From a virus, in UHGV virus genome UHGV-0385761: a DNA stretch of 34,790 bases; one strand, 5' to 3'. A program made the position numbers and the translations under genes. Below the pieces are notes generated by a model. The model saw only the letters and a program-made list of their open reading frames with translations. It did not search any database and had not been told where the DNA came from. This document shows positions 4,672 through 20,371 of the stretch, piece after piece. How positions within the stretch are numbered: the first letter of the stretch is position 1; each line of letters opens with the position of its first letter.

Positions 4672-4797
4672 AAAATCGCTCCTTTCGTAATACTCAGGCA
4701 TGGCAGTGCCCTGTATTTACAGTATAGGAGATAAACGAAAAGGAAGCAATCCCGCCACGGAGGTTACGACGGCAATAAAAATAGGAGGTAAAAGGTA

Positions 4798-5571
4798 TTG
4801 AATGAATTATTTACAATCAACACAGACGGTAACGAACCAACCGTATCTGCCAGAGATCTTCATAAGGCTCTTGGGATCAGAAAAAGATTTTCCGAATGGT
4901 TCGAAAAGAATTCGCAAGGATTTATTGAGAATGAGGATTTCTCCAACCCGTACCTGAAAGTACGAGTTCAGATCGAGGGTGGAAGAGAAGTACAGAGAGA
5001 GGTTGAAGATTTTGATTTGTCAGTAGACATGGCAAAGCACATCTGCCTAATGAGCAGAACTGACAAAGGGAGAGAATGCAGACAAAGATTAATTGACCTC
5101 GAAAAAGCATGGAACACACCAGAACAGGTAATGGCAAGAGCCTTAAAGATGGCAGGAAAGACCATTGACAGCCTAAAAGACAGGTGCAAATTCCTCGGAG
5201 GGCAGGTTGTGGAACAGCAGAAATTGATCGAGGAAATGACACCAAAAGCGAACTATGTTGACCATATTCTGGAATCAAAATCGTTGGTAGCGACTACGCA
5301 GATCGCCAAAGACTATGGAATGTCAGCGGTGCGATTTAACCGGATTCTGAACGATATGAAAATCCAGTACAAGGTTAATAAACAGTGGGTGCTCTACTCA
5401 AAATATCAGAATTGCGGCTATGTGCATAGTAAAACAATCGATATTACAAGGAGCAACGGAGATCCGGATGTAACAATGCAGACGCAGTGGACACAGAAAG
5501 GGCGCTTGTTTTTATACGAGGAGCTTAAGAAAAACGGCATCTATCCAGTAATTGAGCTGAACGCAGCATAA
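4798..5571 (+). CDS. Phage antirepressor (AntA/ORF6N N-terminal domain plus KilA-C C-terminal domain)
   Basis: N-terminal TVSARDLHKALGIRKRFSEWFEKN and C-terminal LVATTQIAKDYGMSAVRFNRILNDMKIQYK. TTG start after AGGAGGT. Confidence 0.85.
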   Translation: MNELFTINTDGNEPTVSARDLHKALGIRKRFSEWFEKNSQGFIENEDFSNPYLKVRVQIEGGREVQREVEDFDLSVDMAKHICLMSRTDKGRECRQRLIDLEKAWNTPEQVMARALKMAGKTIDSLKDRCKFLGGQVVEQQKLIEEMTPKANYVDHILESKSLVATTQIAKDYGMSAVRFNRILNDMKIQYKVNKQWVLYSKYQNCGYVHSKTIDITRSNGDPDVTMQTQWTQKGRLFLYEELKKNGIYPVIELNAA

Positions 5572-16076: not shown

Positions 16077-16346
16077 ATGACAAGAGATACTATGAAGCGC
16101 AGAAAGGAGACAGCGGGAGTTATCCGAAAGATTGAAGCGTACACTATGGCAACGAAAAAGCCCTGTGAGACAGCTCTAAAGCAACAGGGGCATGAACCAT
16201 TTAAGTGCGACTTTAAAAGCGCACAGAGGCCGAATAAGGACGCTGTGGAGTACATAGCAGAGAAATACAACATAAAAGAGCGGATCCCGGGAGGTGATAG
16301 AGTTGGACAAGAAAACACTGAAAAAGTACAAACCAAACAAAGATAG
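16077..16346 (+). CDS. Hypothetical protein (89 aa)
   Basis: RBS GGAGGTGGTACAGGA. It overlaps the start of the late activator gene. Confidence 0.45.
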   Translation: MTRDTMKRRKETAGVIRKIEAYTMATKKPCETALKQQGHEPFKCDFKSAQRPNKDAVEYIAEKYNIKERIPGGDRVGQENTEKVQTKQR

Positions 16347-16731
16347 ACTTATCCGGATTGAGAACCAGATACAAGAACTCTGCGAACGGGAACCAACTGT
16401 TGTTATGGGGAAAGTAACTGGATCCAGCGCAGATTTTCCGTACACCGAAGTGAGAACATCTGTACAAATGTATGATCCTTACGAGGAAGAGAATATAAGA
16501 CGTCAGATCAGAAGAAAAGAAGCGGACAGGCTGCGGATTCTGAAAGAGCAAAAAGAAGTAGAGGACTACATAAATGGGATTGATGATCCGGAGATTAAGG
16601 AGATATTTGAGTTATCGTTTCTCGAGGGTAAGAAGCAGGATGAAGTTGCGGAGATAGTAAATATTGACAGAAGTTACGTGTCGAAAAAAATAAGTGACTA
16701 TCTTAAACTTTCACACTTTTCACAAAAATAA
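16300..16731 (+). CDS. Late-gene transcriptional activator, sigma-70 region-4-like (ArpU/RinA-type)
   Basis: C-terminal DPEIKEIFELSFLEGKKQDEVAEIVNIDRSYVSKKISDYLK HTH. It sits immediately upstream of the packaging genes. The start is uncertain (TTG 16300 after GGGAGG, or GTG 16294). Confidence 0.6.
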   Translation, partial: ELDKKTLKKYKPNKDRLIRIENQIQELCEREPTVVMGKVTGSSADFPYTEVRTSVQMYDPYEEENIRRQIRRKEADRLRILKEQKEVEDYINGIDDPEIKEIFELSFLEGKKQDEVAEIVNIDRSYVSKKISDYLKLSHFSQK

Positions 16732-16794
16732 TATGCTATAATTATTCTAGAACGATTGTATATTGTTCTAAAACAATCTTTCCAAACATTCGGA

Positions 16795-16837
16795 ACACCG
16801 CCGGACTTTCACCCTTTCTCGTCTGGCGGTGTTTTTA
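16795..16837 (+). terminator. Strong rho-independent terminator (ACACCGCCGGAC...GTCTGGCGGTGT followed by TTTTT)
   Basis: 14-bp stem with one G-U pair, a 14-nt loop and a T5 run, directly after the activator gene. Confidence 0.65.
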
Positions 16838-16838
16838 T

Positions 16839-16883
16839 GCCGTGGCAAATGTAGGGCAGACAGGTTCGACTCCTGTACACGGC
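16839..16883 (+). other. tRNA-like minihelix fragment: acceptor-like GCCGTGG...ACACGGC plus a perfect T-arm ACAGG-TTCGACT-CCTGT, with no D or anticodon arms
   Basis: The T-loop consensus TTCGANT sits in a 5-bp stem. The 6/7-bp acceptor pairing is only 16 nt away, too short for a full tRNA. Confidence 0.4.
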
Positions 16884-16956
16884 TTTGTGATGTAAGGTTT
16901 GCGGCTTACCAGCTGGGGGTTGCTGTAGGGAGTGCACACCGGCGTTACATCACAAA
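16884..16956. repeat. 12-bp perfect inverted repeat TTTGTGATGTAA / TTACATCACAAA enclosing a 49-nt GC-rich loop
   Basis: Read directly. It lies immediately 3' of the tRNA-like fragment. Confidence 0.55.
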
Positions 16957-17078
16957 TGGTACCAAAACGCAGATATCCGCAGATTTGCAAAACAAACAAA
17001 AATAGATTCAGCAATCTATATTTAGTGTCAGTACCTGAGTGCGGATAGGGTAAAGGATGTCAATAAAAGGCATCCTAC

Positions 17079-17151
17079 GGGTGTATAGCTCAGTAGGTAG
17101 AGCAATCGGCTGTTAACCGATGTGTCGCAGGTTCGAGTCCTGCTATACCCG
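17079..17151 (+). tRNA. tRNA-Asn (anticodon GTT), no encoded CCA
   Basis: GGGTGTA acceptor pairs with TATACCC (one G-U). D-arm GCTCAGTAGGTAGAGC, anticodon loop CTGTTAA, T-arm GCAGGTTCGAGTCCTGC. Confidence 0.85.
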
Positions 17152-17155
17152 TTGT

Positions 17156-17288
17156 GGACTACTGCAAGTTACTCCTTTTTTTATAAAATGATCACTCAAG
17201 ATTCCGAGAGATCATATAGATTTTGATTGTGTACTTGGTTATTTTGGTTTTGTTGCTGTTATAATTCTTTCATTTTGCAGTAGTCCTA
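17156..17288. repeat. 11-bp inverted repeat GGACTACTGCA (17156-17166) / TGCAGTAGTCC (17278-17288) bracketing the AT-rich region between the tRNA and terS
   Basis: Read directly. It is a candidate packaging (pac/cos) or regulatory element. Confidence 0.4.
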
Positions 17289-17344
17289 AATTCTTAGCAT
17301 CCAGAGATGGGTGCTTTTATTATGTTTTAAAGGTGGTGGGTCGG

Positions 17345-17812
17345 ATGGCAAAAGGTAAATATCAGGAATGGCTAGAGCCGGAAGGCTTGCTAAAGATAGA
17401 GGGATGGGCGAGAGATGGTCTGACAGACGAGCAGATAGCAAATAACATAGGGATATCGGTATCTTGCTTGAATAACTGGAAAAACAAGTATGTGGAGATT
17501 TTGGAGTCCCTAAAAAAGGGAAAAGAAGTTGTTGATCGTCAAGTTGAGAACGCTCTGCTAAAACGTGCGCTTGGATATGAGTACACGGAAACAACCAGGG
17601 AATACATACCGGAACTTGATGAAATGAAAACTACAAAAAAGGTCACAAAGCAAGTAGCACCGGACACGACAGCCCAGATCTTTTGGTTGAAGAACCGGAA
17701 ACCGGACAAATGGAGGGATAAGCAGGAATACGAGGACAGAACAGCAATTGAGAAGCTGGATGAAATCTTGAAAGGATTGCATGACAATGCAGCTAAGCAA
17801 AAAACAGAATGA
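17345..17812 (+). CDS. Terminase small subunit
   Basis: HTH-like LTDEQIANNIGISVSCLNNWKNKY. It sits immediately upstream of TerL. RBS AAAGGTGGTGGG. Confidence 0.8.
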   Translation: MAKGKYQEWLEPEGLLKIEGWARDGLTDEQIANNIGISVSCLNNWKNKYVEILESLKKGKEVVDRQVENALLKRALGYEYTETTREYIPELDEMKTTKKVTKQVAPDTTAQIFWLKNRKPDKWRDKQEYEDRTAIEKLDEILKGLHDNAAKQKTE

Positions 17813-19028
17813 ATACATCATAAACGCAACTCATAGATGGAATATCAAGTCCGGAGCGGTTCGTTCTGGAAAGTCCTTTGTAGACACTGCTTATATTGTC
17901 CCAAAAAGAATCAGAGATAGAGCTGGACTCCCCGGCTTGAATGTAATCATGGGTGTCTCCAAAGAATCCATAGAGCGAAACGTACTCCAACCGATGAGGG
18001 AAATCTATACCAGTGATCTAATCGGGAACATTAACAACCGGAATGTGGCAAGAGTATGCGGAGAGGATGTCTATTGTCTCGGAGCAGAAAAGGTCAGTCA
18101 GGTTGCGAAGATACAGGGAGCGTCCATTAAGTACTGTTACGGCGATGAGATAGCAAAATGGAACAAAGAGGTGTTCCAGATGCTTAAATCCCGTCTCGAT
18201 AAGACGTATTCCTGTTTTGATGGAGCTTGCAACCCGGAGAATCCGACACATTGGCTAAAAGAATTTCTCGACAATAAAAAATTAGATATCTATTTGCAGA
18301 GATACACGATTTTCGACAATCCGTTTCTGGCTCCAGATTTCGTGGAGAAGCTCTGCATCGAATATGACGGTACCGTTTATTATGACCGGTTGATTCTTGG
18401 TCTATGGAAACGAGCAGAGGGAGCGATTTACCGCAAATTTGCAGATCATCCGAAAGATTTTGTCAAAGAGCCGACTGCATCCGATCTGACAGAGATTGTC
18501 ATTGGCGTGGACTTTGGTGGTAATAAGTCTGGTCATTCTTTCGTGGCAAGAGGGTATGACCGAGACAATAATGTATACGGATTGAAGAGTATCCGATACA
18601 TGAATACGGACACGAAAAGGTTTAAAGAGGGAATTGATTCAAACATTCTGAATGATCTTCTTATTCAATTTGTTGATGAGGTGCAAGAAAAGTATGGAAA
18701 GGTTGATTTTATTTACTGGGATAACGCGGAGACTACGCTCGGCCAGAGTATACGGAATGCCATGATGAAAGCGCATCCGAATGTAATTGTGAGACCGGCT
18801 AAGAAAATTAGGATAAAAGACCGGATTGAGTGCGTCTTAAGGCTCATGGGAGCTGGGCGCTTTTTTATTACAGAGGATTGCGAAACATTATCGACAGCAT
18901 TACAAGAAGCGGTGTGGGATGAAAAAGCATTAAAAGACGATCGTCTGGATGACGGAAGTAGTGATATTGATACACTGGATGCATTTGAGTACACGATAGA
19001 ACGCGACATTAAAATGCTGACAGAGTGA
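17781..19028 (+). CDS. Terminase large subunit
   Basis: Walker A KSGAVRSGKSF, Walker B-like YGDEIA, and a C-terminal nuclease region. Confidence 0.9.
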   Translation: MTMQLSKKQNEYIINATHRWNIKSGAVRSGKSFVDTAYIVPKRIRDRAGLPGLNVIMGVSKESIERNVLQPMREIYTSDLIGNINNRNVARVCGEDVYCLGAEKVSQVAKIQGASIKYCYGDEIAKWNKEVFQMLKSRLDKTYSCFDGACNPENPTHWLKEFLDNKKLDIYLQRYTIFDNPFLAPDFVEKLCIEYDGTVYYDRLILGLWKRAEGAIYRKFADHPKDFVKEPTASDLTEIVIGVDFGGNKSGHSFVARGYDRDNNVYGLKSIRYMNTDTKRFKEGIDSNILNDLLIQFVDEVQEKYGKVDFIYWDNAETTLGQSIRNAMMKAHPNVIVRPAKKIRIKDRIECVLRLMGAGRFFITEDCETLSTALQEAVWDEKALKDDRLDDGSSDIDTLDAFEYTIERDIKMLTE

Positions 19029-19036
19029 GGTGCAAG

Positions 19037-20371
19037 ATGTTTAAGTTTATTAACAAGGTTATTACAGGAGTGTTTAACATGATAAGCAGAACCACGATGA
19101 AGCAGGTGTTGAGAGAATCTCCTGCAATTACAAGCACAATGGTGCAGAAAATAAATGAATGGAACAGCATGCTCTCTGGGAATGCAGACTGGTGCAAGGA
19201 TTATGTGAAGTCCCTGAGGATTGAACAGGGGATATGTAGAGAGTTTGCAGATGTTGTGCTGTCGGAAATGGAAATAAAAATATCGAACGATAAGCTCTTA
19301 AAACTGTTTGAGAAAACCACAGAGAGCCTGAATGAGAATCTACAGGACGGTCTTGGACTTGGTTCGTTCTGCCTAAAACCCCTTGGAAATGAACAGGCAG
19401 AGTTCGTGACAGCAGATAAGTTCATCCCGGTGAGCTTTGGAAATGATGAGAAGCCGAACGATATAGTCTTTCTGGACTTCCGAGCCATAGACGATGCAAA
19501 GTATTATGTTCGCCTGGAGCGGCACAGTATCAAAAACGGATTCCTCGAGATCACAAACGAAGCCTATTGCTCATCCACAAGATATGGATTTGACCGGAAA
19601 ATCTCTCTGGAAAGCTTAGAAGCATGGGCTGGACTGCCGGAACATGTAGCGTATCCGGGAGTTAAAGAGATGGATTTTGGGTACTACAGAAATCCGATAA
19701 AAAACAGGGTTGATGACACGCCATGCGGTGTGTCTATTTTTGATTCCGCAATCAATCTTATCGAAAGAGCTGACGTGCAGGGAGCAAGGATAGACTGGGA
19801 GTTTGAATCCGGAGAAAGAGCAATCCATGTGGATGCCACAGCTATCAAAAGAGAGCCGGATGGACGGAATGGAGTATCTAAGCTAAATAAGCGTTTGTAT
19901 GTCGGAATCGACAGCGAGGATGGATTTTACAAAGAGTTCTCGCCGGAATTCCGGGAAGAGAATCTAATAAACGGTCTGGATAACTACCTCAGACAGATCG
20001 AGCTTGTAGTTGGACTTGCATTCGGAGATTTAAGCAATCCGCAGAGCACCGACAAGACAGCTACGGAAGTAAAAGCATCCAAAAACCGGAAGTACAACCG
20101 AGTAAAGGCGATTCAAGATAATTTAAGGGACTGCTTAGAGGATTTTGTAAGAGGTATGGCGTTCCACGAGGGGATGCTTCATTCCGGATATGAGTTTATC
20201 TGCAGTTTTAAAGATTCGATCCTGACAGACGAAGAAACGGACAGACAACTGATGCTAAATGAGATAGCAGCCGGAATCAGATCACACTGGGAGTACAGGG
20301 TTCGATTCCTCGGGGAGGATGAAGAAACTGCAAAAGCGAATGTGCCGGATCAAGGTGGAGTAATGGAGTGA
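19037..20371 (+). CDS. Portal protein (SPP1 gp6-like)
   Basis: Size, position and conserved portal core. RBS GAGG 6 nt before ATG 19037. Confidence 0.85.
   Translation: MFKFINKVITGVFNMISRTTMKQVLRESPAITSTMVQKINEWNSMLSGNADWCKDYVKSLRIEQGICREFADVVLSEMEIKISNDKLLKLFEKTTESLNENLQDGLGLGSFCLKPLGNEQAEFVTADKFIPVSFGNDEKPNDIVFLDFRAIDDAKYYVRLERHSIKNGFLEITNEAYCSSTRYGFDRKISLESLEAWAGLPEHVAYPGVKEMDFGYYRNPIKNRVDDTPCGVSIFDSAINLIERADVQGARIDWEFESGERAIHVDATAIKREPDGRNGVSKLNKRLYVGIDSEDGFYKEFSPEFREENLINGLDNYLRQIELVVGLAFGDLSNPQSTDKTATEVKASKNRKYNRVKAIQDNLRDCLEDFVRGMAFHEGMLHSGYEFICSFKDSILTDEETDRQLMLNEIAAGIRSHWEYRVRFLGEDEETAKANVPDQGGVME

What the first reader, a model, noticed from the sequence alone, without database searches (positions are those of the whole stretch)
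16839..16956. tRNA-like minihelix (acceptor plus T-arm only) fused to a 12-bp-stem hairpin, 200 bp upstream of a genuine tRNA gene
ACAGG-TTCGACT-CCTGT is a perfect tRNA T-arm. It is followed by ACACGGC, which pairs 6/7 with GCCGTGG lying only 16 nt upstream. There is no room for D and anticodon arms. The structure therefore resembles a tRNA top-half minihelix or the 3' fragment that phages carry in attP when they integrate into tRNA genes. This phage uses a serine integrase 16 kb away, so the fragment may be a fossil of an earlier tRNA-targeting integration module. Alternatively it may be a functional tRNA-like element. Immediately downstream, TTTGTGATGTAA...TTACATCACAAA forms a 12-bp stem around a 49-nt GC-rich loop.
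Basis: partly seen in the sequence, partly recalled or inferred. Interest (0 to 1): 0.55.

Follow-up and report, generated by a model that had tools for sequence, protein, structure and literature searches.

The report
Truncated tRNA-like gene in gut phage
A family of human-gut (Ruminococcus gnavus-type) phages always carries, just upstream of a real tRNA gene, a 46-base miniature tRNA that has lost its anticodon arm but keeps its shape through compensating mutations, so it is probably a working RNA rather than a relic, though its job is still unknown.

Summary
Window 16839-16884 folds as a 6-bp acceptor stem, a 2-3-bp D-like hairpin with a GG loop, and a canonical T-arm, followed by discriminator U and no encoded CCA. 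It abuts a 12-bp-stem hairpin (16884-16956). ARAGORN and Rfam do not call it.

In 191 related phage or metagenome loci (128 distinct), the same slot always holds one of three interchangeable tRNA-like cassettes:
- type A (the window's, 46 nt);
- type B (45 nt);
- type C (71-73 nt), a cloverleaf whose anticodon arm is decaying.

Compensatory changes support all three helices. One lineage has 5 substitutions, 4 of them in two compensated pairs (P about 5e-4). Acceptor and T-arm match tRNA-Thr genes, so this is a truncated tRNA-Thr derivative. The attP-fossil idea fails. No Lachnospiraceae tRNA shares the 3' end, the element includes its own 5' acceptor strand, and it occurs in relatives with different integrases.

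Best reading (inferred, not shown): it is a late-transcribed tRNA top-half/elbow mimic cut by RNase P and RNase Z. Together with the downstream tRNA-Asn it would bracket and release a conserved, roughly 190-nt structured RNA. A decoy role against tRNA-targeting defences is not excluded.

The parts
16734..16742 (+). Extended -10-like promoter element TGCTATAAT, just after the stop codon of the RinA-like late regulator gene (16294-16731)
   Evidence: Read. Promoter-like sites in this stretch appear. The equivalent position in L131 holds TTGACA-17-TATACT. The regulator matches Sigma70_r4 and phrog_36.
16794..16838 (+). Strong intrinsic-terminator-like hairpin: 12-13-bp stem, a 14-nt loop containing CACCCTTTCT, and a U-tract ending 3 nt before the mini-tRNA
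   Evidence: Inverted repeat I2. Folding energy -21.1 kcal/mol, z = -6.5. Five different terminators occupy this place in relatives, always 3-7 nt before the tRNA-like element.
16839..16884 (+). Type A mini-tRNA: acceptor 16839-16844 / 16878-16883; D-like hairpin 16845-16846 / 16856-16857 with a loop ending in GG; T-arm 16860-16876 (T-loop TTCGACT); unpaired A16877; discriminator T16884; no CCA
   Evidence: Sequence. Pair counts and shuffle controls. RNAalifold consensus. Covariance model R1 scores 70.5 bits here. Not called by ARAGORN or Rfam.
16884..16956 (+). Variable hairpin, form H1: outer stem 16884-16895 / 16945-16956; probable inner stem GCGGC 16901-16905 / GTTGC 16919-16923; apical loop with invariant CAGCTG 16910-16915; invariant 3' internal loop GGGAGTGCACACCGG 16928-16942
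   Evidence: Inverted repeat I3. Alignment A3 and RNAalifold support the outer stem, mostly through G.U changes plus compensatory changes in L169. Four alternative forms exist, and two loci lack the hairpin. The inner stem was derived by hand from the variants.
16957..17078 (+). Nearly invariant spacer with four small hairpins and a possible long-range helix ATCCGCA 16975-16981 / TGCGGAT 17040-17046. Together with H1 it makes up the roughly 190-nt RNA 'X' that lies between the tRNA-like element and the tRNA.
   Evidence: Alignment and alifold of 46 distinct spacers. MFE of 16885-17077 has z = -2.8. Most variants of the long-range helix (6 of 16 non-consensus loci) are G.U changes; a fourth variant, CGCGGAT in 10 loci, breaks the terminal pair. 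No Rfam hit.
17079..17151 (+). Genuine tRNA-Asn(GTT), with no encoded CCA. Its trailer TTGTGG resembles the trailer TTGTGA that follows the mini-tRNA.
   Evidence: ARAGORN; Rfam tRNA at 72.6 bits. Replaced by tRNA-Ile(TAT) in some relatives.
17156..17315 (+). 12-bp long-range inverted repeat (17156-17167 / 17275-17286) around an AT-rich stretch containing TGtTATAAT (17257-17265), then a terminator-like hairpin (17296-17315) just before terS (17333/17345-17812). This is context, not part of the mini-tRNA.
   Evidence: Inverted repeat I4. Terminator scan. terS and terL identified.

Best explanation
**Shown.** 16839-16884 is a conserved, structurally constrained, truncated tRNA. It is most similar to tRNA-Thr genes. 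It keeps only the top half of a tRNA: acceptor stem, T-arm, and a miniature D-hairpin that can complete the elbow. It has no anticodon arm.

It is the first element of a non-coding module with this order: terminator, tRNA-like element, variable hairpin, invariant spacer, real tRNA. The module sits between the late regulator gene and terS in a family of R. gnavus-type gut phages.

**Inferred mechanism.**
1. The module is transcribed by read-through or antitermination of the upstream terminator, on the same strand as tRNA-Asn.
2. Host RNase P cuts at G16839. Host RNase Z cuts after U16884, as it does for the CCA-less tRNA-Asn, which has the same UUGUG trailer.
3. The mini-tRNA therefore serves as a shape-only processing handle. 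Together with RNase P cleavage at the 5' end of the downstream tRNA, it excises the roughly 190-nt structured RNA 'X' (16885-17078) with defined ends, and it separates the module from the upstream transcript.

Because only the shape read by tRNA-processing enzymes is needed, the anticodon arm is free to decay (type C) or disappear (types A and B), and different tRNA-like cassettes can replace one another.
For: **Retention.** All 191 homologous loci with enough upstream sequence (128 distinct) carry a tRNA-like cassette: 44 type A, 90 type B, 57 type C. The loci were collected with an anchor that lies outside the element. The neighbouring hairpin, by contrast, exists in 4 forms and is deleted in 2 loci.

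**Structure under selection.**
- 96.2% of cells are paired, and 5 of 14 pairs have changed on both sides. 0 of 500 shuffles reach the observed covariation score, and slid controls give 28-54% paired.
- RNAalifold finds the same three helices unaided.
- In the L163/L172/L207 lineage, 4 of 5 substitutions form two compensated pairs: 2:71 C-G to U-A, with both intermediates seen in L111 and L174, and 7:19 G-C to A-U. A simulation gives P about 5e-4.
- Many changes are G.U pairs. These pair only in plus-strand RNA.

**The anticodon arm is dispensable.** Type C has three different 'anticodon' loops, a stem mismatch (L134) and a 1-nt deletion (L202). Its acceptor, D and T stems are kept through compensatory changes.

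**Origin.** The acceptor and T-arm match tRNA-Thr genes of Companilactobacillus and of other phage contigs in 23 of 25 positions. The type B linker keeps the D-loop string TCAGTTGG.

**Features expected of a processing substrate.**
- G at +1.
- U or C at -1.
- T-loop UUCGA invariant.
- Discriminator U invariant.
- No CCA encoded.
- The same UUGUG trailer as tRNA-Asn.
- The hairpin starts 0-4 nt after the discriminator in every form.
- The RNA between the two tRNA-shaped elements is the most conserved part of the module and is predicted to be structured.

**Precedent.** MHV68 TMERs are viral tRNA-like elements fused to hairpins. They are not aminoacylated and are released by RNase Z (PMC4337559).
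Against: - There is no expression or end-mapping data.
- A strong terminator ends 3 nt upstream with no promoter in between, so transcription depends on read-through.
- The single-sequence MFE prefers another fold.
- The acceptor/T stack is 11 bp plus a mismatch in types A and B but 13 bp (9/4) in type C. That is awkward if ruler-like enzymes are the only readers.
- In H1 the discriminator can pair with A16956, which might hinder RNase Z.
- The phages are closely related, so the covariation rests on few independent events.
- The mini-tRNA is kept in L128/L130, where the hairpin is deleted, and the retained D-like hairpin is more than a minimal RNase P/Z substrate needs. So it may have a role of its own.
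- Cassette swapping between near-identical flanks could instead reflect diversifying selection.
Confidence: 0.45

Rival explanations
1. tRNA top-half decoy or mimic. After processing and CCA addition, the mini-tRNA accumulates as an abundant, non-decoding look-alike of the tRNA acceptor/T-arm/elbow. It titrates a host factor that reads that surface. Candidates are a defence nuclease or toxin acting on acceptor stems, T-loops or CCA ends, or an elbow reader such as RNase P, a T-box or the CCA-adding enzyme.
For: - Selection acts on the acceptor, the T-arm and also the D-like hairpin that completes the elbow.
- The mini-tRNA is kept even where the adjacent hairpin is deleted (L128/L130).
- Three divergent cassettes and four hairpin forms reassort between near-identical flanks. 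This is the pattern typical of conflict loci.
- The slot is an accessory-gene hot spot: a hicAB cassette sits directly upstream in 5 loci.
Against: - This is purely circumstantial. No partner is identified, and the window contains no tRNA-related enzyme or known anti-defence gene.
- The coaxial stack length differs between types A/B and type C.
- The abundance and CCA status of the RNA are unknown.
- A decoy would have to compete with the whole cellular tRNA pool.
Confidence: 0.2
2. Neutral relic: a tRNA-Thr pseudogene that suffered an internal deletion and is conserved only because these phages diverged recently. It has no function.
For: - It clearly descends from a tRNA.
- tRNA finders reject it.
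- The sampled phages are close relatives, with flanks about 80-99% identical.
- Single mismatches occur in L021, L159 and L174.
Against: - It is present in 191 of 191 loci, while the adjacent hairpin and the upstream genes come and go.
- Compensated double changes are specific to the truncated fold, including pair 7:19, which does not exist in a full tRNA (P about 5e-4).
- The linkers of types A and B match at only about 8 of 19 positions, yet both keep the same three helices.
- Type C shows selective decay of only the anticodon arm.
Confidence: 0.08
3. Fossil attP core, or a 3' tRNA fragment left by a former tRNA-targeting integration module.
For: - The T-arm plus 3' acceptor strand resembles what tRNA-integrating phages carry.
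- Some related prophages use tRNA-associated attB sites (PMC10072058).
Against: - It contains the 5' acceptor strand as well, which attP cores do not need.
- No exact host match was found among 185,579 species genomes. The degenerate search found only Lactobacillaceae tRNA-Thr genes and prophage copies.
- It lies between the late regulator and terS, far from the integrase.
- It is present regardless of integrase type.
- It evolves by compensatory change, which a recombination core would not do.
Confidence: 0.02
4. A DNA-level site (cos/pac, an operator for the late regulator, or an origin), or part of a small protein-coding gene, rather than an RNA.
For: - The region is next to terS, where packaging and late-promoter sites usually lie.
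- There are many 6-bp palindromes nearby (GGTACC, CAGCTG, GTGCAC, AGATCT).
- ORFs 16829-17005 (+) and 16835-17014 (-) exist.
- RG-TP1 annotates a CDS here.
Against: - Nine of 19 distinct minihelices have G1.U72, and many hairpin variants are G.U pairs. On the other strand or in a DNA cruciform these would be C.A mismatches.
- The cassettes differ in length (45, 46 and 71-73 nt) and the hairpins range from 53 to 81 nt, so no reading frame is preserved.
- The invariant T-loop UUCGA and the tRNA ancestry have no DNA-level rationale.
Confidence: 0.03
5. An aminoacylated minihelix: charged by ThrRS or another synthetase, or used like the tRNA-like domain of tmRNA, and feeding a translational or non-ribosomal aminoacyl-transfer reaction.
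For: - Minihelices can be charged in vitro (background knowledge; reviewed in PMC9976931, listed).
- The acceptor stem is tRNA-Thr-like and the discriminator is invariant.
Against: - The acceptor pairs known to matter for ThrRS vary. Pair 1:72 is G-C in 10 and G.U in 9 distinct sequences, and 2:71 changes from C-G to U-A (the identity rules are background knowledge).
- The G3.U70 needed for alanine is absent (C3-G70 in A/B, G3-C70 in C).
- There is no tag reading frame. ARAGORN finds no tmRNA, and the Rfam tmRNA model gives 7.6 bits for the T-arm only.
- Type C has a different acceptor stem altogether.
Confidence: 0.04

Closest known systems
MHV68 TMERs (viral tRNA-like element fused to pre-miRNA hairpins)
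   Same: A virus-encoded, non-decoding tRNA-like element is directly followed by a stem-loop RNA. In TMERs the tRNA-like part is not aminoacylated and RNase Z separates the two parts (PMC4337559). The layout here is the same: tRNA-like element, then a hairpin starting 0-4 nt after the discriminator.
   Different: TMERs are eukaryotic Pol III genes whose internal promoter lies in a full-size cloverleaf, and their hairpins enter the miRNA pathway. Here the host is a bacterium, the element lacks the anticodon arm, it lies in a Pol-type read-through transcript, and the downstream RNA is bounded on its other side by a real tRNA. Processing has not been shown.
mascRNA / MEN-beta tRNA-like elements of MALAT1 and NEAT1 (background knowledge)
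   Same: A tRNA-shaped module with a non-functional anticodon region is used as an RNase P and RNase Z cleavage signal. It defines the ends of a neighbouring non-coding RNA and releases a small CCA-tailed tRNA-like RNA.
   Different: Those elements are eukaryotic, keep a (short) anticodon stem, and lie at the 3' end of a long nuclear RNA. The resemblance is recalled, not tested here.
Acceptor-T-arm minihelix ('top half') substrates of RNase P, RNase Z, the CCA-adding enzyme and some synthetases
   Same: The coaxial acceptor/T-stem stack with a canonical T-loop is the part retained here. Readers of the tRNA elbow are reviewed in PMC4810234 (listed).
   Different: Minihelices are laboratory constructs or hypothetical ancestors. 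This is a natural gene. It also keeps a miniature D-hairpin, and its acceptor stem has 6 pairs plus a mismatch.
tRNA-like domain of tmRNA
   Same: Acceptor stem, T-arm and a D-loop analogue without an anticodon arm.
   Different: tmRNA joins the domain to a long helix, pseudoknots and a tag reading frame, and needs G3.U70. None of these is present.
tRNA 3' fragments in phage attP sites
   Same: Contains a T-arm and a 3' acceptor strand derived from a tRNA.
   Different: It also contains the 5' strand, matches no host tRNA, is not near the integrase, and shows compensatory evolution.
Phage non-coding RNAs found beside tRNA genes (ROOL, GOLLD; T4 stable RNAs C and D, the latter from memory)
   Same: ROOL and GOLLD are encoded in phages and prophages, 'often near tRNA islands', and their function is unknown (PMC12286853). 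Here too a structured RNA of unknown function (16885-17078) sits in a phage tRNA module.
   Different: There is no sequence or structure match to any Rfam family, including ROOL and GOLLD. The RNA here is about 190 nt rather than 500-800 nt. A tRNA-like bookend has not, to my knowledge, been described for those RNAs.

Membership tests
Canonical tRNA | Cloverleaf with an anticodon arm carrying a 7-nt loop and an anticodon | tested here: not met
   Only 14 nt lie between the acceptor 5' strand and the T-stem. ARAGORN finds a single tRNA in the window, the Asn gene. The Rfam tRNA model gives no hit here even at E up to 10.
Canonical tRNA | 7-bp acceptor stem stacked on a 5-bp T-stem with a UUCRANY T-loop | tested here: inconclusive
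   The T-arm is canonical (ACAGG/UUCGACU/CCUGU) and its T-loop UUCGA is invariant. The acceptor has 6 pairs, and position 7 pairs with position 19 instead of 66.
Canonical tRNA | D-loop G18 G19 available to pair with the T-loop and form the elbow | not testable with these tools
   A GG dinucleotide ends the D-like loop in both type A (..UAGG) and type B (..UUGG). Tertiary pairing cannot be computed here.
tmRNA | Tag reading frame, pseudoknots, and G3.U70 in the acceptor stem | tested here: not met
   ARAGORN reports no tmRNA. The Rfam tmRNA model gives 7.6 bits against a gathering score of 47, covering the T-arm only. Pair 3:70 is C-G.
attP tRNA fragment | Identity of 20 nt or more to the 3' part of a host tRNA gene | tested here: not met
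   The exact 21-mer has 0 hits in GTDB species genomes. The degenerate 20-mer hits only Lactobacillaceae tRNA-Thr genes, two prophage copies and chance coding-region matches.
attP tRNA fragment | Located next to the integrase, and dependent on that integration module | tested here: not met
   The integrase is at 1200-2720 and the element at 16839. The element is present in relatives with a tyrosine integrase and an intergenic attB.
tRNA-like processing handle (mascRNA / TMER type) | tRNA-shaped but non-decoding element directly adjoining another non-coding RNA | tested here: met
   There is no anticodon arm. The hairpin begins 0-4 nt after the discriminator in all four forms. A structured, conserved RNA follows.
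tRNA-like processing handle (mascRNA / TMER type) | Cleavage by RNase P at the 5' end and RNase Z at the 3' end, then CCA addition | not testable with these tools
   Only compatible features are seen: G at +1, U or C at -1, discriminator U, no CCA, and a UUGUG trailer shared with the CCA-less tRNA-Asn.
Any described RNA family (Rfam 15, including Y RNA-like, ROOL, GOLLD and self-cleaving ribozymes) | Score at or above the family's gathering threshold | tested here: not met
   Only tRNA-Asn passes in the window and in 13 related loci. At E up to 10 nothing meaningful overlaps 16839-17078.
Selenocysteine-type or 9/4 tRNA (for the type C cassette of relatives) | Long acceptor stem (8-9 bp) with a short T-stem, a long variable arm and a UCA anticodon | tested here: not met
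   Type C aligns best to the tRNA-Sec model with a 9/4 stack, but scores 28.3 bits against a gathering score of 47. It has no long variable arm. ARAGORN reads its 'anticodon' as CGC, and the loop varies between variants.

The most novel reading that the evidence does not exclude
Gut phages encode a dedicated 'anticodon-less tRNA', a roughly 46-nt RNA that reproduces only the acceptor/T-arm/elbow surface. They use it as an RNA decoy or inhibitor against host immunity that recognises that surface: nucleases that clip CCA tails, cut acceptor stems or cut T-loops, or toxins that modify tRNA 3' ends. The three interchangeable cassettes (A, B, C) and the four hairpin forms would then be alleles in an arms race.
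Probability: 0.2. Interest if true: 0.85.

Novelty: new variant of a known kind. Interest (0 to 1): 0.6.

Why it matters
Phage tRNA genes are usually explained by codon usage or by replacing tRNAs that host defences destroy. Here a phage lineage keeps, without exception, a tRNA that cannot decode. That shows selection on the non-decoding half of the tRNA shape.

If the processing-handle reading is right, this is a natural bacterial counterpart of the tRNA-flanked release of non-coding RNAs known from herpesvirus TMERs and from MALAT1/mascRNA. It would also point to an uncharacterised, roughly 190-nt, late-expressed phage RNA as the real cargo. If the decoy reading is right, it would be a new class of RNA-based anti-defence.

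There are practical consequences too. tRNA finders miss types A and B, and ARAGORN labels type C 'tRNA-Ala', a label that has entered GenBank records. Gene callers also place spurious CDSs over the element.

Tried and rejected
- **ARAGORN and Rfam** (gathering and E up to 10) on the window and 13 relatives gave no family for the mini-tRNA, the hairpin or the spacer. This includes tmRNA, Y RNA-like RNAs, HDV-like, hammerhead, twister, pistol and hatchet ribozymes, ROOL and GOLLD.
- **Host tRNA with the same 3' end:** the exact search returned nothing and the degenerate search returned no Lachnospiraceae tRNA.
- **First viral scan** with the 14-mer GTCTGGCGGTGTTT was too unspecific. About 80 of 120 loci were chance matches, and I reused them as negative controls.
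- **Covariance model R1** on about 770 kb of unrelated and tRNA-rich viral loci found no other truncated tRNA-likes. The short hits proved to be 3' halves of ordinary tRNAs.
- **Single-sequence folding** does not recover the T-arm and is not significant.
- **MAFFT/RNAalifold on the H1 hairpin** resolved only the outer stem. The inner stem had to be derived by hand and remains tentative.
- **HDV-like topology for the hairpin** was considered (it would cleave itself off the tRNA-like element, as reported for ribozymes beside phage tRNAs). I rejected it because the 5'-most bases pair with the 3'-most bases, which is not the HDV nesting, and because Rfam found nothing.
- **Small-ORF reading** was rejected on frame inconsistency between cassettes.
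- **Literature searches** for phage anticodon-less or truncated tRNA-like elements found no description of this element.
Full report
**1. What is in the sequence**

The window is a temperate siphophage of the Ruminococcus (Mediterraneibacter) gnavus phage group. The region 16300-17400 matches phiRM10, RG-TP1, phiRg507T2_2 and relatives at 75-87% identity. The finding lies in a roughly 600-nt non-coding stretch between two genes:
- a RinA-like late regulator gene (16294-16731; Sigma70_r4, phrog_36; annotated 'RinA family' in relatives);
- terS and terL (17333-19028).

- GCCGTGG at 16839-16845;
- T-arm ACAGG-TTCGACT-CCTGT at 16860-16876;
- ACACGGC at 16877-16883, pairing 6/7 with GCCGTGG;
- a perfect 12-bp inverted repeat 16884-16895 / 16945-16956 around 49 nt that are 65% G+C, against 42.5% for the window;
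- tRNA-Asn(GTT) 194 nt downstream;
- a serine integrase at 1200-2720.

Two corrections are needed. The linker is 14 nt, not 16. It is also not featureless (see section 3).

**2. Is it more than chance?**

Not on its own.
- A T-loop-like GGTTCGANTCC occurs 4 times in the window against 1.7 expected, once inside a coding region.
- The 46-mer's MFE is unremarkable and does not even contain the T-arm (z = -1.6).
- ARAGORN and Rfam do not call it. At E up to 10 the only trace is a 7.6-bit local match of the tmRNA model to the T-arm.

The case rests on comparison with relatives.

**3. Comparative evidence**

I collected homologous loci with sequence anchors that lie outside the element: 111 from IMG/VR and 93 from metagenomes. 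191 of them have at least 300 nt upstream of the anchor, and 128 of these are distinct. Two further matches were chance hits in unrelated coding sequence.

Every one of the 191 has a tRNA-like cassette in the same slot, starting 3-7 nt after the U-tract of an intrinsic terminator:
- Type A (the window's, 46 nt): 44 loci.
- Type B (45 nt): 90 loci. Sequence GCCGTG-GTC-AGTTGG-GAC-AA-GCGGG-TTCGATC-CCTGC-A-CACGGT-T.
- Type C (71-73 nt, a full-size cloverleaf): 57 loci.

The neighbours are far less constant:
- Five different terminators and different upstream genes occur.
- A hicAB cassette sits directly upstream in five loci.
- The hairpin exists in four unrelated forms and is deleted in L128/L130.
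- The downstream tRNA is Asn or Ile.
- All minihelix-by-hairpin combinations occur, so the parts reassort freely.

An alignment of the 19 distinct A/B sequences (A2) was scored against a three-helix structure: acceptor of 6 bp, D-like hairpin of 2-3 bp, T-arm of 5 bp.
- 96.2% of cells are paired.
- 5 of 14 pairs have changed on both sides.
- 0 of 500 column shuffles reach the observed covariation score.
- Slid controls give 28-54% paired.
- RNAalifold, given no structure, returns the same three helices.

The individual changes are informative:
- T-stem 49:65 is A-U in type A and G-C in type B.
- T-stem 51:63 is A-U, G.U or G-C.
- Acceptor 2:71 goes from C-G to U-A in L163/L172/L207, and both intermediates are present (U.G in L111, C.A in L174).
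- The D-like pair 7:19 goes from G-C to A-U in the same lineage, and 8:18 is C-G in type A and U-A in type B.

Pair 7:19 does not exist in a normal tRNA, where position 7 pairs with 66. So this compensation occurred in the truncated molecule. In the L163 lineage 4 of 5 substitutions fall into two compensated pairs. A simulation of 5 random substitutions gives P about 5e-4.

Nine of the 19 sequences have G1.U72, and the hairpin varies largely through G.U pairs. These pair only in RNA of the plus strand, the strand of tRNA-Asn and of all neighbouring genes.

A covariance model built from A2 hits the window once (16839-16884; 70.5 bits, E = 2e-16). It gives only 20-34 bits to full tRNAs that share the acceptor sequence. 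It found no other truncated forms in about 770 kb of control and tRNA-rich viral DNA.

**4. Type C shows which parts matter**

GenBank records of phiRg507T2_2 and three relatives call this cassette tRNA-Ala(CGC), following ARAGORN. Several facts argue against that label:
- It has G3-C70, not the G3.U70 of alanine tRNAs.
- It falls below the Rfam tRNA threshold.
- It aligns best, still below threshold, to the tRNA-Sec model with a 9-bp acceptor and a 4-bp T-stem (28.3 bits).
- The 9/4 fold is backed by compensatory changes in L169: UAU/GUG to UAU/AUA, and UUGG/CCAA to CCGG/CCGG.

Among its 14 variants the 'anticodon' arm has three different loops, a stem mismatch (L134) and a 1-nt deletion (L202). 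The acceptor, D and T stems are maintained, including a D-stem A.C mismatch repaired to G-C in one metagenome variant. In all three cassette types the decoding end is dispensable and the top half is not.

**5. Origin**

- The degenerate 3'-end pattern retrieved genuine tRNA-Thr(CGT) genes of Companilactobacillus. Their sequence is GCCGTGT...ACAGGTTCGACTCCTGCACACGGCA, which is 23/25 identical to the type A T-arm plus acceptor.
- A pattern for full-size tRNAs with this acceptor retrieved phage tRNA-Thr(UGU) genes that also have discriminator U, for example L262.
- The type B linker retains the D-loop string TCAGTTGG.

The mini-tRNA is therefore a tRNA-Thr-like gene that lost the anticodon arm and most of the D-stem.

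**6. The attP-fossil reading fails**

- The exact 3' 21-mer is absent from 185,579 species genomes.
- No Lachnospiraceae tRNA matches the degenerate pattern.
- The element has its own 5' strand.
- It is about 14 kb from the integrase.
- It is present in phages that use a tyrosine integrase with an intergenic attB (PMC10072058).
- It evolves by compensatory change.

**7. How it most likely works (inference)**

The conserved order is: late regulator gene, sigma70-like promoter, strong terminator, tRNA-like element, hairpin, invariant spacer, real tRNA, terS. This order holds even where the regulator and the terminator are non-homologous. So the module is probably the first part of a transcript that reads through the terminator.

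The element has what RNase P, RNase Z and the CCA-adding enzyme read:
- an acceptor/T stack;
- an invariant UUCGA T-loop;
- a GG-ended D-like loop that could complete the elbow;
- G at +1 and U or C at -1;
- an invariant discriminator U;
- no CCA;
- the same UUGUG trailer as the CCA-less tRNA-Asn.

The hairpin begins 0-4 nt after the discriminator in all forms. The stretch between the mini-tRNA and the tRNA (16885-17078) has these properties:
- It is the most conserved part of the module.
- It folds better than shuffles (z = -2.8).
- It contains four small hairpins.
- It has a possible long-range helix 16975-16981 / 17040-17046. Six variant loci change it only to G.U pairs, and ten break its terminal pair.

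The simplest mechanism is that the mini-tRNA is a shape-only processing handle. RNase Z at its 3' end and RNase P at the 5' end of the downstream tRNA would excise this roughly 190-nt RNA. RNase P at its own 5' end would detach the module from the upstream transcript. This explains the universal retention, the loss of the anticodon arm and the interchangeability of cassettes. It parallels the herpesvirus TMERs (PMC4337559) and, from background knowledge, MALAT1/mascRNA.

None of the cleavages has been shown. Points against this mechanism:
- The terminator lies only 3 nt upstream.
- The stack lengths differ (11-12 bp in A/B, 13 bp in C).
- The discriminator can pair into the H1 stem.
- A D-like hairpin is retained that a minimal substrate would not need.
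- The mini-tRNA persists where the hairpin is deleted.

**8. Main rival**

The mini-tRNA may itself be the product: a top-half/elbow decoy. Three observations fit a conflict locus:
- Cassettes and hairpins reassort between near-identical flanks.
- A hicAB moron sits in the same slot.
- Defences exist that recognise the T-arm plus acceptor and clip CCA tails (Cas12a3, PMC12851939).

No partner is known, however. Neutral decay, a DNA-level site, a small ORF and aminoacylation are each contradicted by specific observations (see the rival explanations).

**9. Comparison and novelty**

The element is not a member of any of these:
- the tRNA family (no anticodon arm);
- tmRNA (no tag, no G3.U70);
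- attP fragments;
- any Rfam family.

It works, at most, like a mascRNA- or TMER-type tRNA-like handle, or like a minihelix substrate. I found no description of a phage-encoded, anticodon-arm-less tRNA-like gene in six targeted literature searches. I rate it a new variant of a known kind (tRNA-like or tRNA-derived non-coding elements). Interest is moderate to high because retention and covariation are strong while function is open.

Noticed in passing
window 16885-17078: A roughly 190-nt non-coding RNA candidate ('X') lies between the mini-tRNA and tRNA-Asn. It consists of a variable hairpin plus a nearly invariant spacer of about 120 nt with four small hairpins and a possible long-range helix, ATCCGCA 16975-16981 / TGCGGAT 17040-17046. 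Six variant loci change that helix only to G.U pairs, and ten loci break its terminal pair. No Rfam match. It may be the real cargo of the module.
   Followed up: partly
window 16910-16915 and 16928-16942; other hairpin forms in L101, L143, L022: Each hairpin form carries a palindrome in an apical loop: H1 CAGCUG, H2 (A)UUCCGGAA(U), H3 CCGG, H4 CGCGCG/CGAUCG. H1 and H2 also share a conserved GGRAGUGC on the 3' side. Self-complementary loops could mediate kissing dimers or bind a protein. This was not tested.
   Followed up: no
window 16719-16838; L131 about 4722-4815: The layout 'late regulator gene, sigma70-like promoter, strong terminator within about 60-90 nt, late module and terS' is kept even when the regulator and terminator are non-homologous. 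It resembles the lambdoid Q / PR' / tR' arrangement and suggests that late expression depends on antitermination.
   Followed up: partly
window 16807-16820: The 14-nt terminator loop contains CACCCUUUCU, which resembles the 3' end of 16S rRNA (anti-Shine-Dalgarno region). CCCTTTCT is invariant in the five-phage alignment A1 and present in every locus assigned to this terminator type, which was itself defined by a pattern containing that string.
   Followed up: no
window 17156-17315: A perfect 12-bp inverted repeat (17156-17167 / 17275-17286) brackets an AT-rich 107 nt that contains an extended -10-like TGtTATAAT (17257-17265). A terminator-like hairpin (17296-17315) sits immediately before the terS ribosome-binding site.
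   Followed up: partly
L001 665-737 (phiRg507T2_2); also phiRg507T2_3, phiRgIBDN1, phiRg519T2: The gene annotated 'tRNA-Ala' in these GenBank records is the type C tRNA-like cassette. It has G3-C70, scores below the Rfam tRNA threshold, has a 9/4 acceptor/T stack and a variable 'anticodon' loop. It is probably not an alanine tRNA.
   Followed up: yes
L003 577-720 (RG-TP1, XPO97280.1); window ORFs 16829-17005 (+) and 16835-17014 (-): A hypothetical-protein CDS is annotated across the terminator and mini-tRNA in RG-TP1. The cassette length differences (45, 46 and 71-73 nt) break any common frame, so the CDS is probably spurious.
   Followed up: partly
L111 8892-9554; also L120, L163, L172, L207: A hicA/hicB toxin-antitoxin pair (Pfam HicA_toxin, HicB_lk_antitox), with its own promoter and terminator, is inserted exactly between the upstream terminator and the mini-tRNA. 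This marks the junction as an accessory-gene hot spot.
   Followed up: yes
L125 940-1404 (Blautia phage Montmirail): A more distant phage has, at the equivalent place between its late regulator and tRNA-Asn, a different GC-rich non-coding stretch of about 460 nt. It has no mini-tRNA and no Rfam match, and small hypothetical CDSs are annotated over it.
   Followed up: no
window 20299-20309: A perfect T-loop-like GGTTCGATTCC lies inside ORF 19025-20371, the reading frame that follows terL. It is a chance occurrence that shows the motif alone is not diagnostic.
   Followed up: partly
L004, L038, L108 versus the window, 17079-17151: The real tRNA at the 3' end of the module is Asn(GTT) in most phages and Ile(TAT) in others. 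L038 and L108 have an extra tRNA-Arg(CCT) about 1 kb away. So the decoding tRNA is also a swappable cassette.
   Followed up: partly
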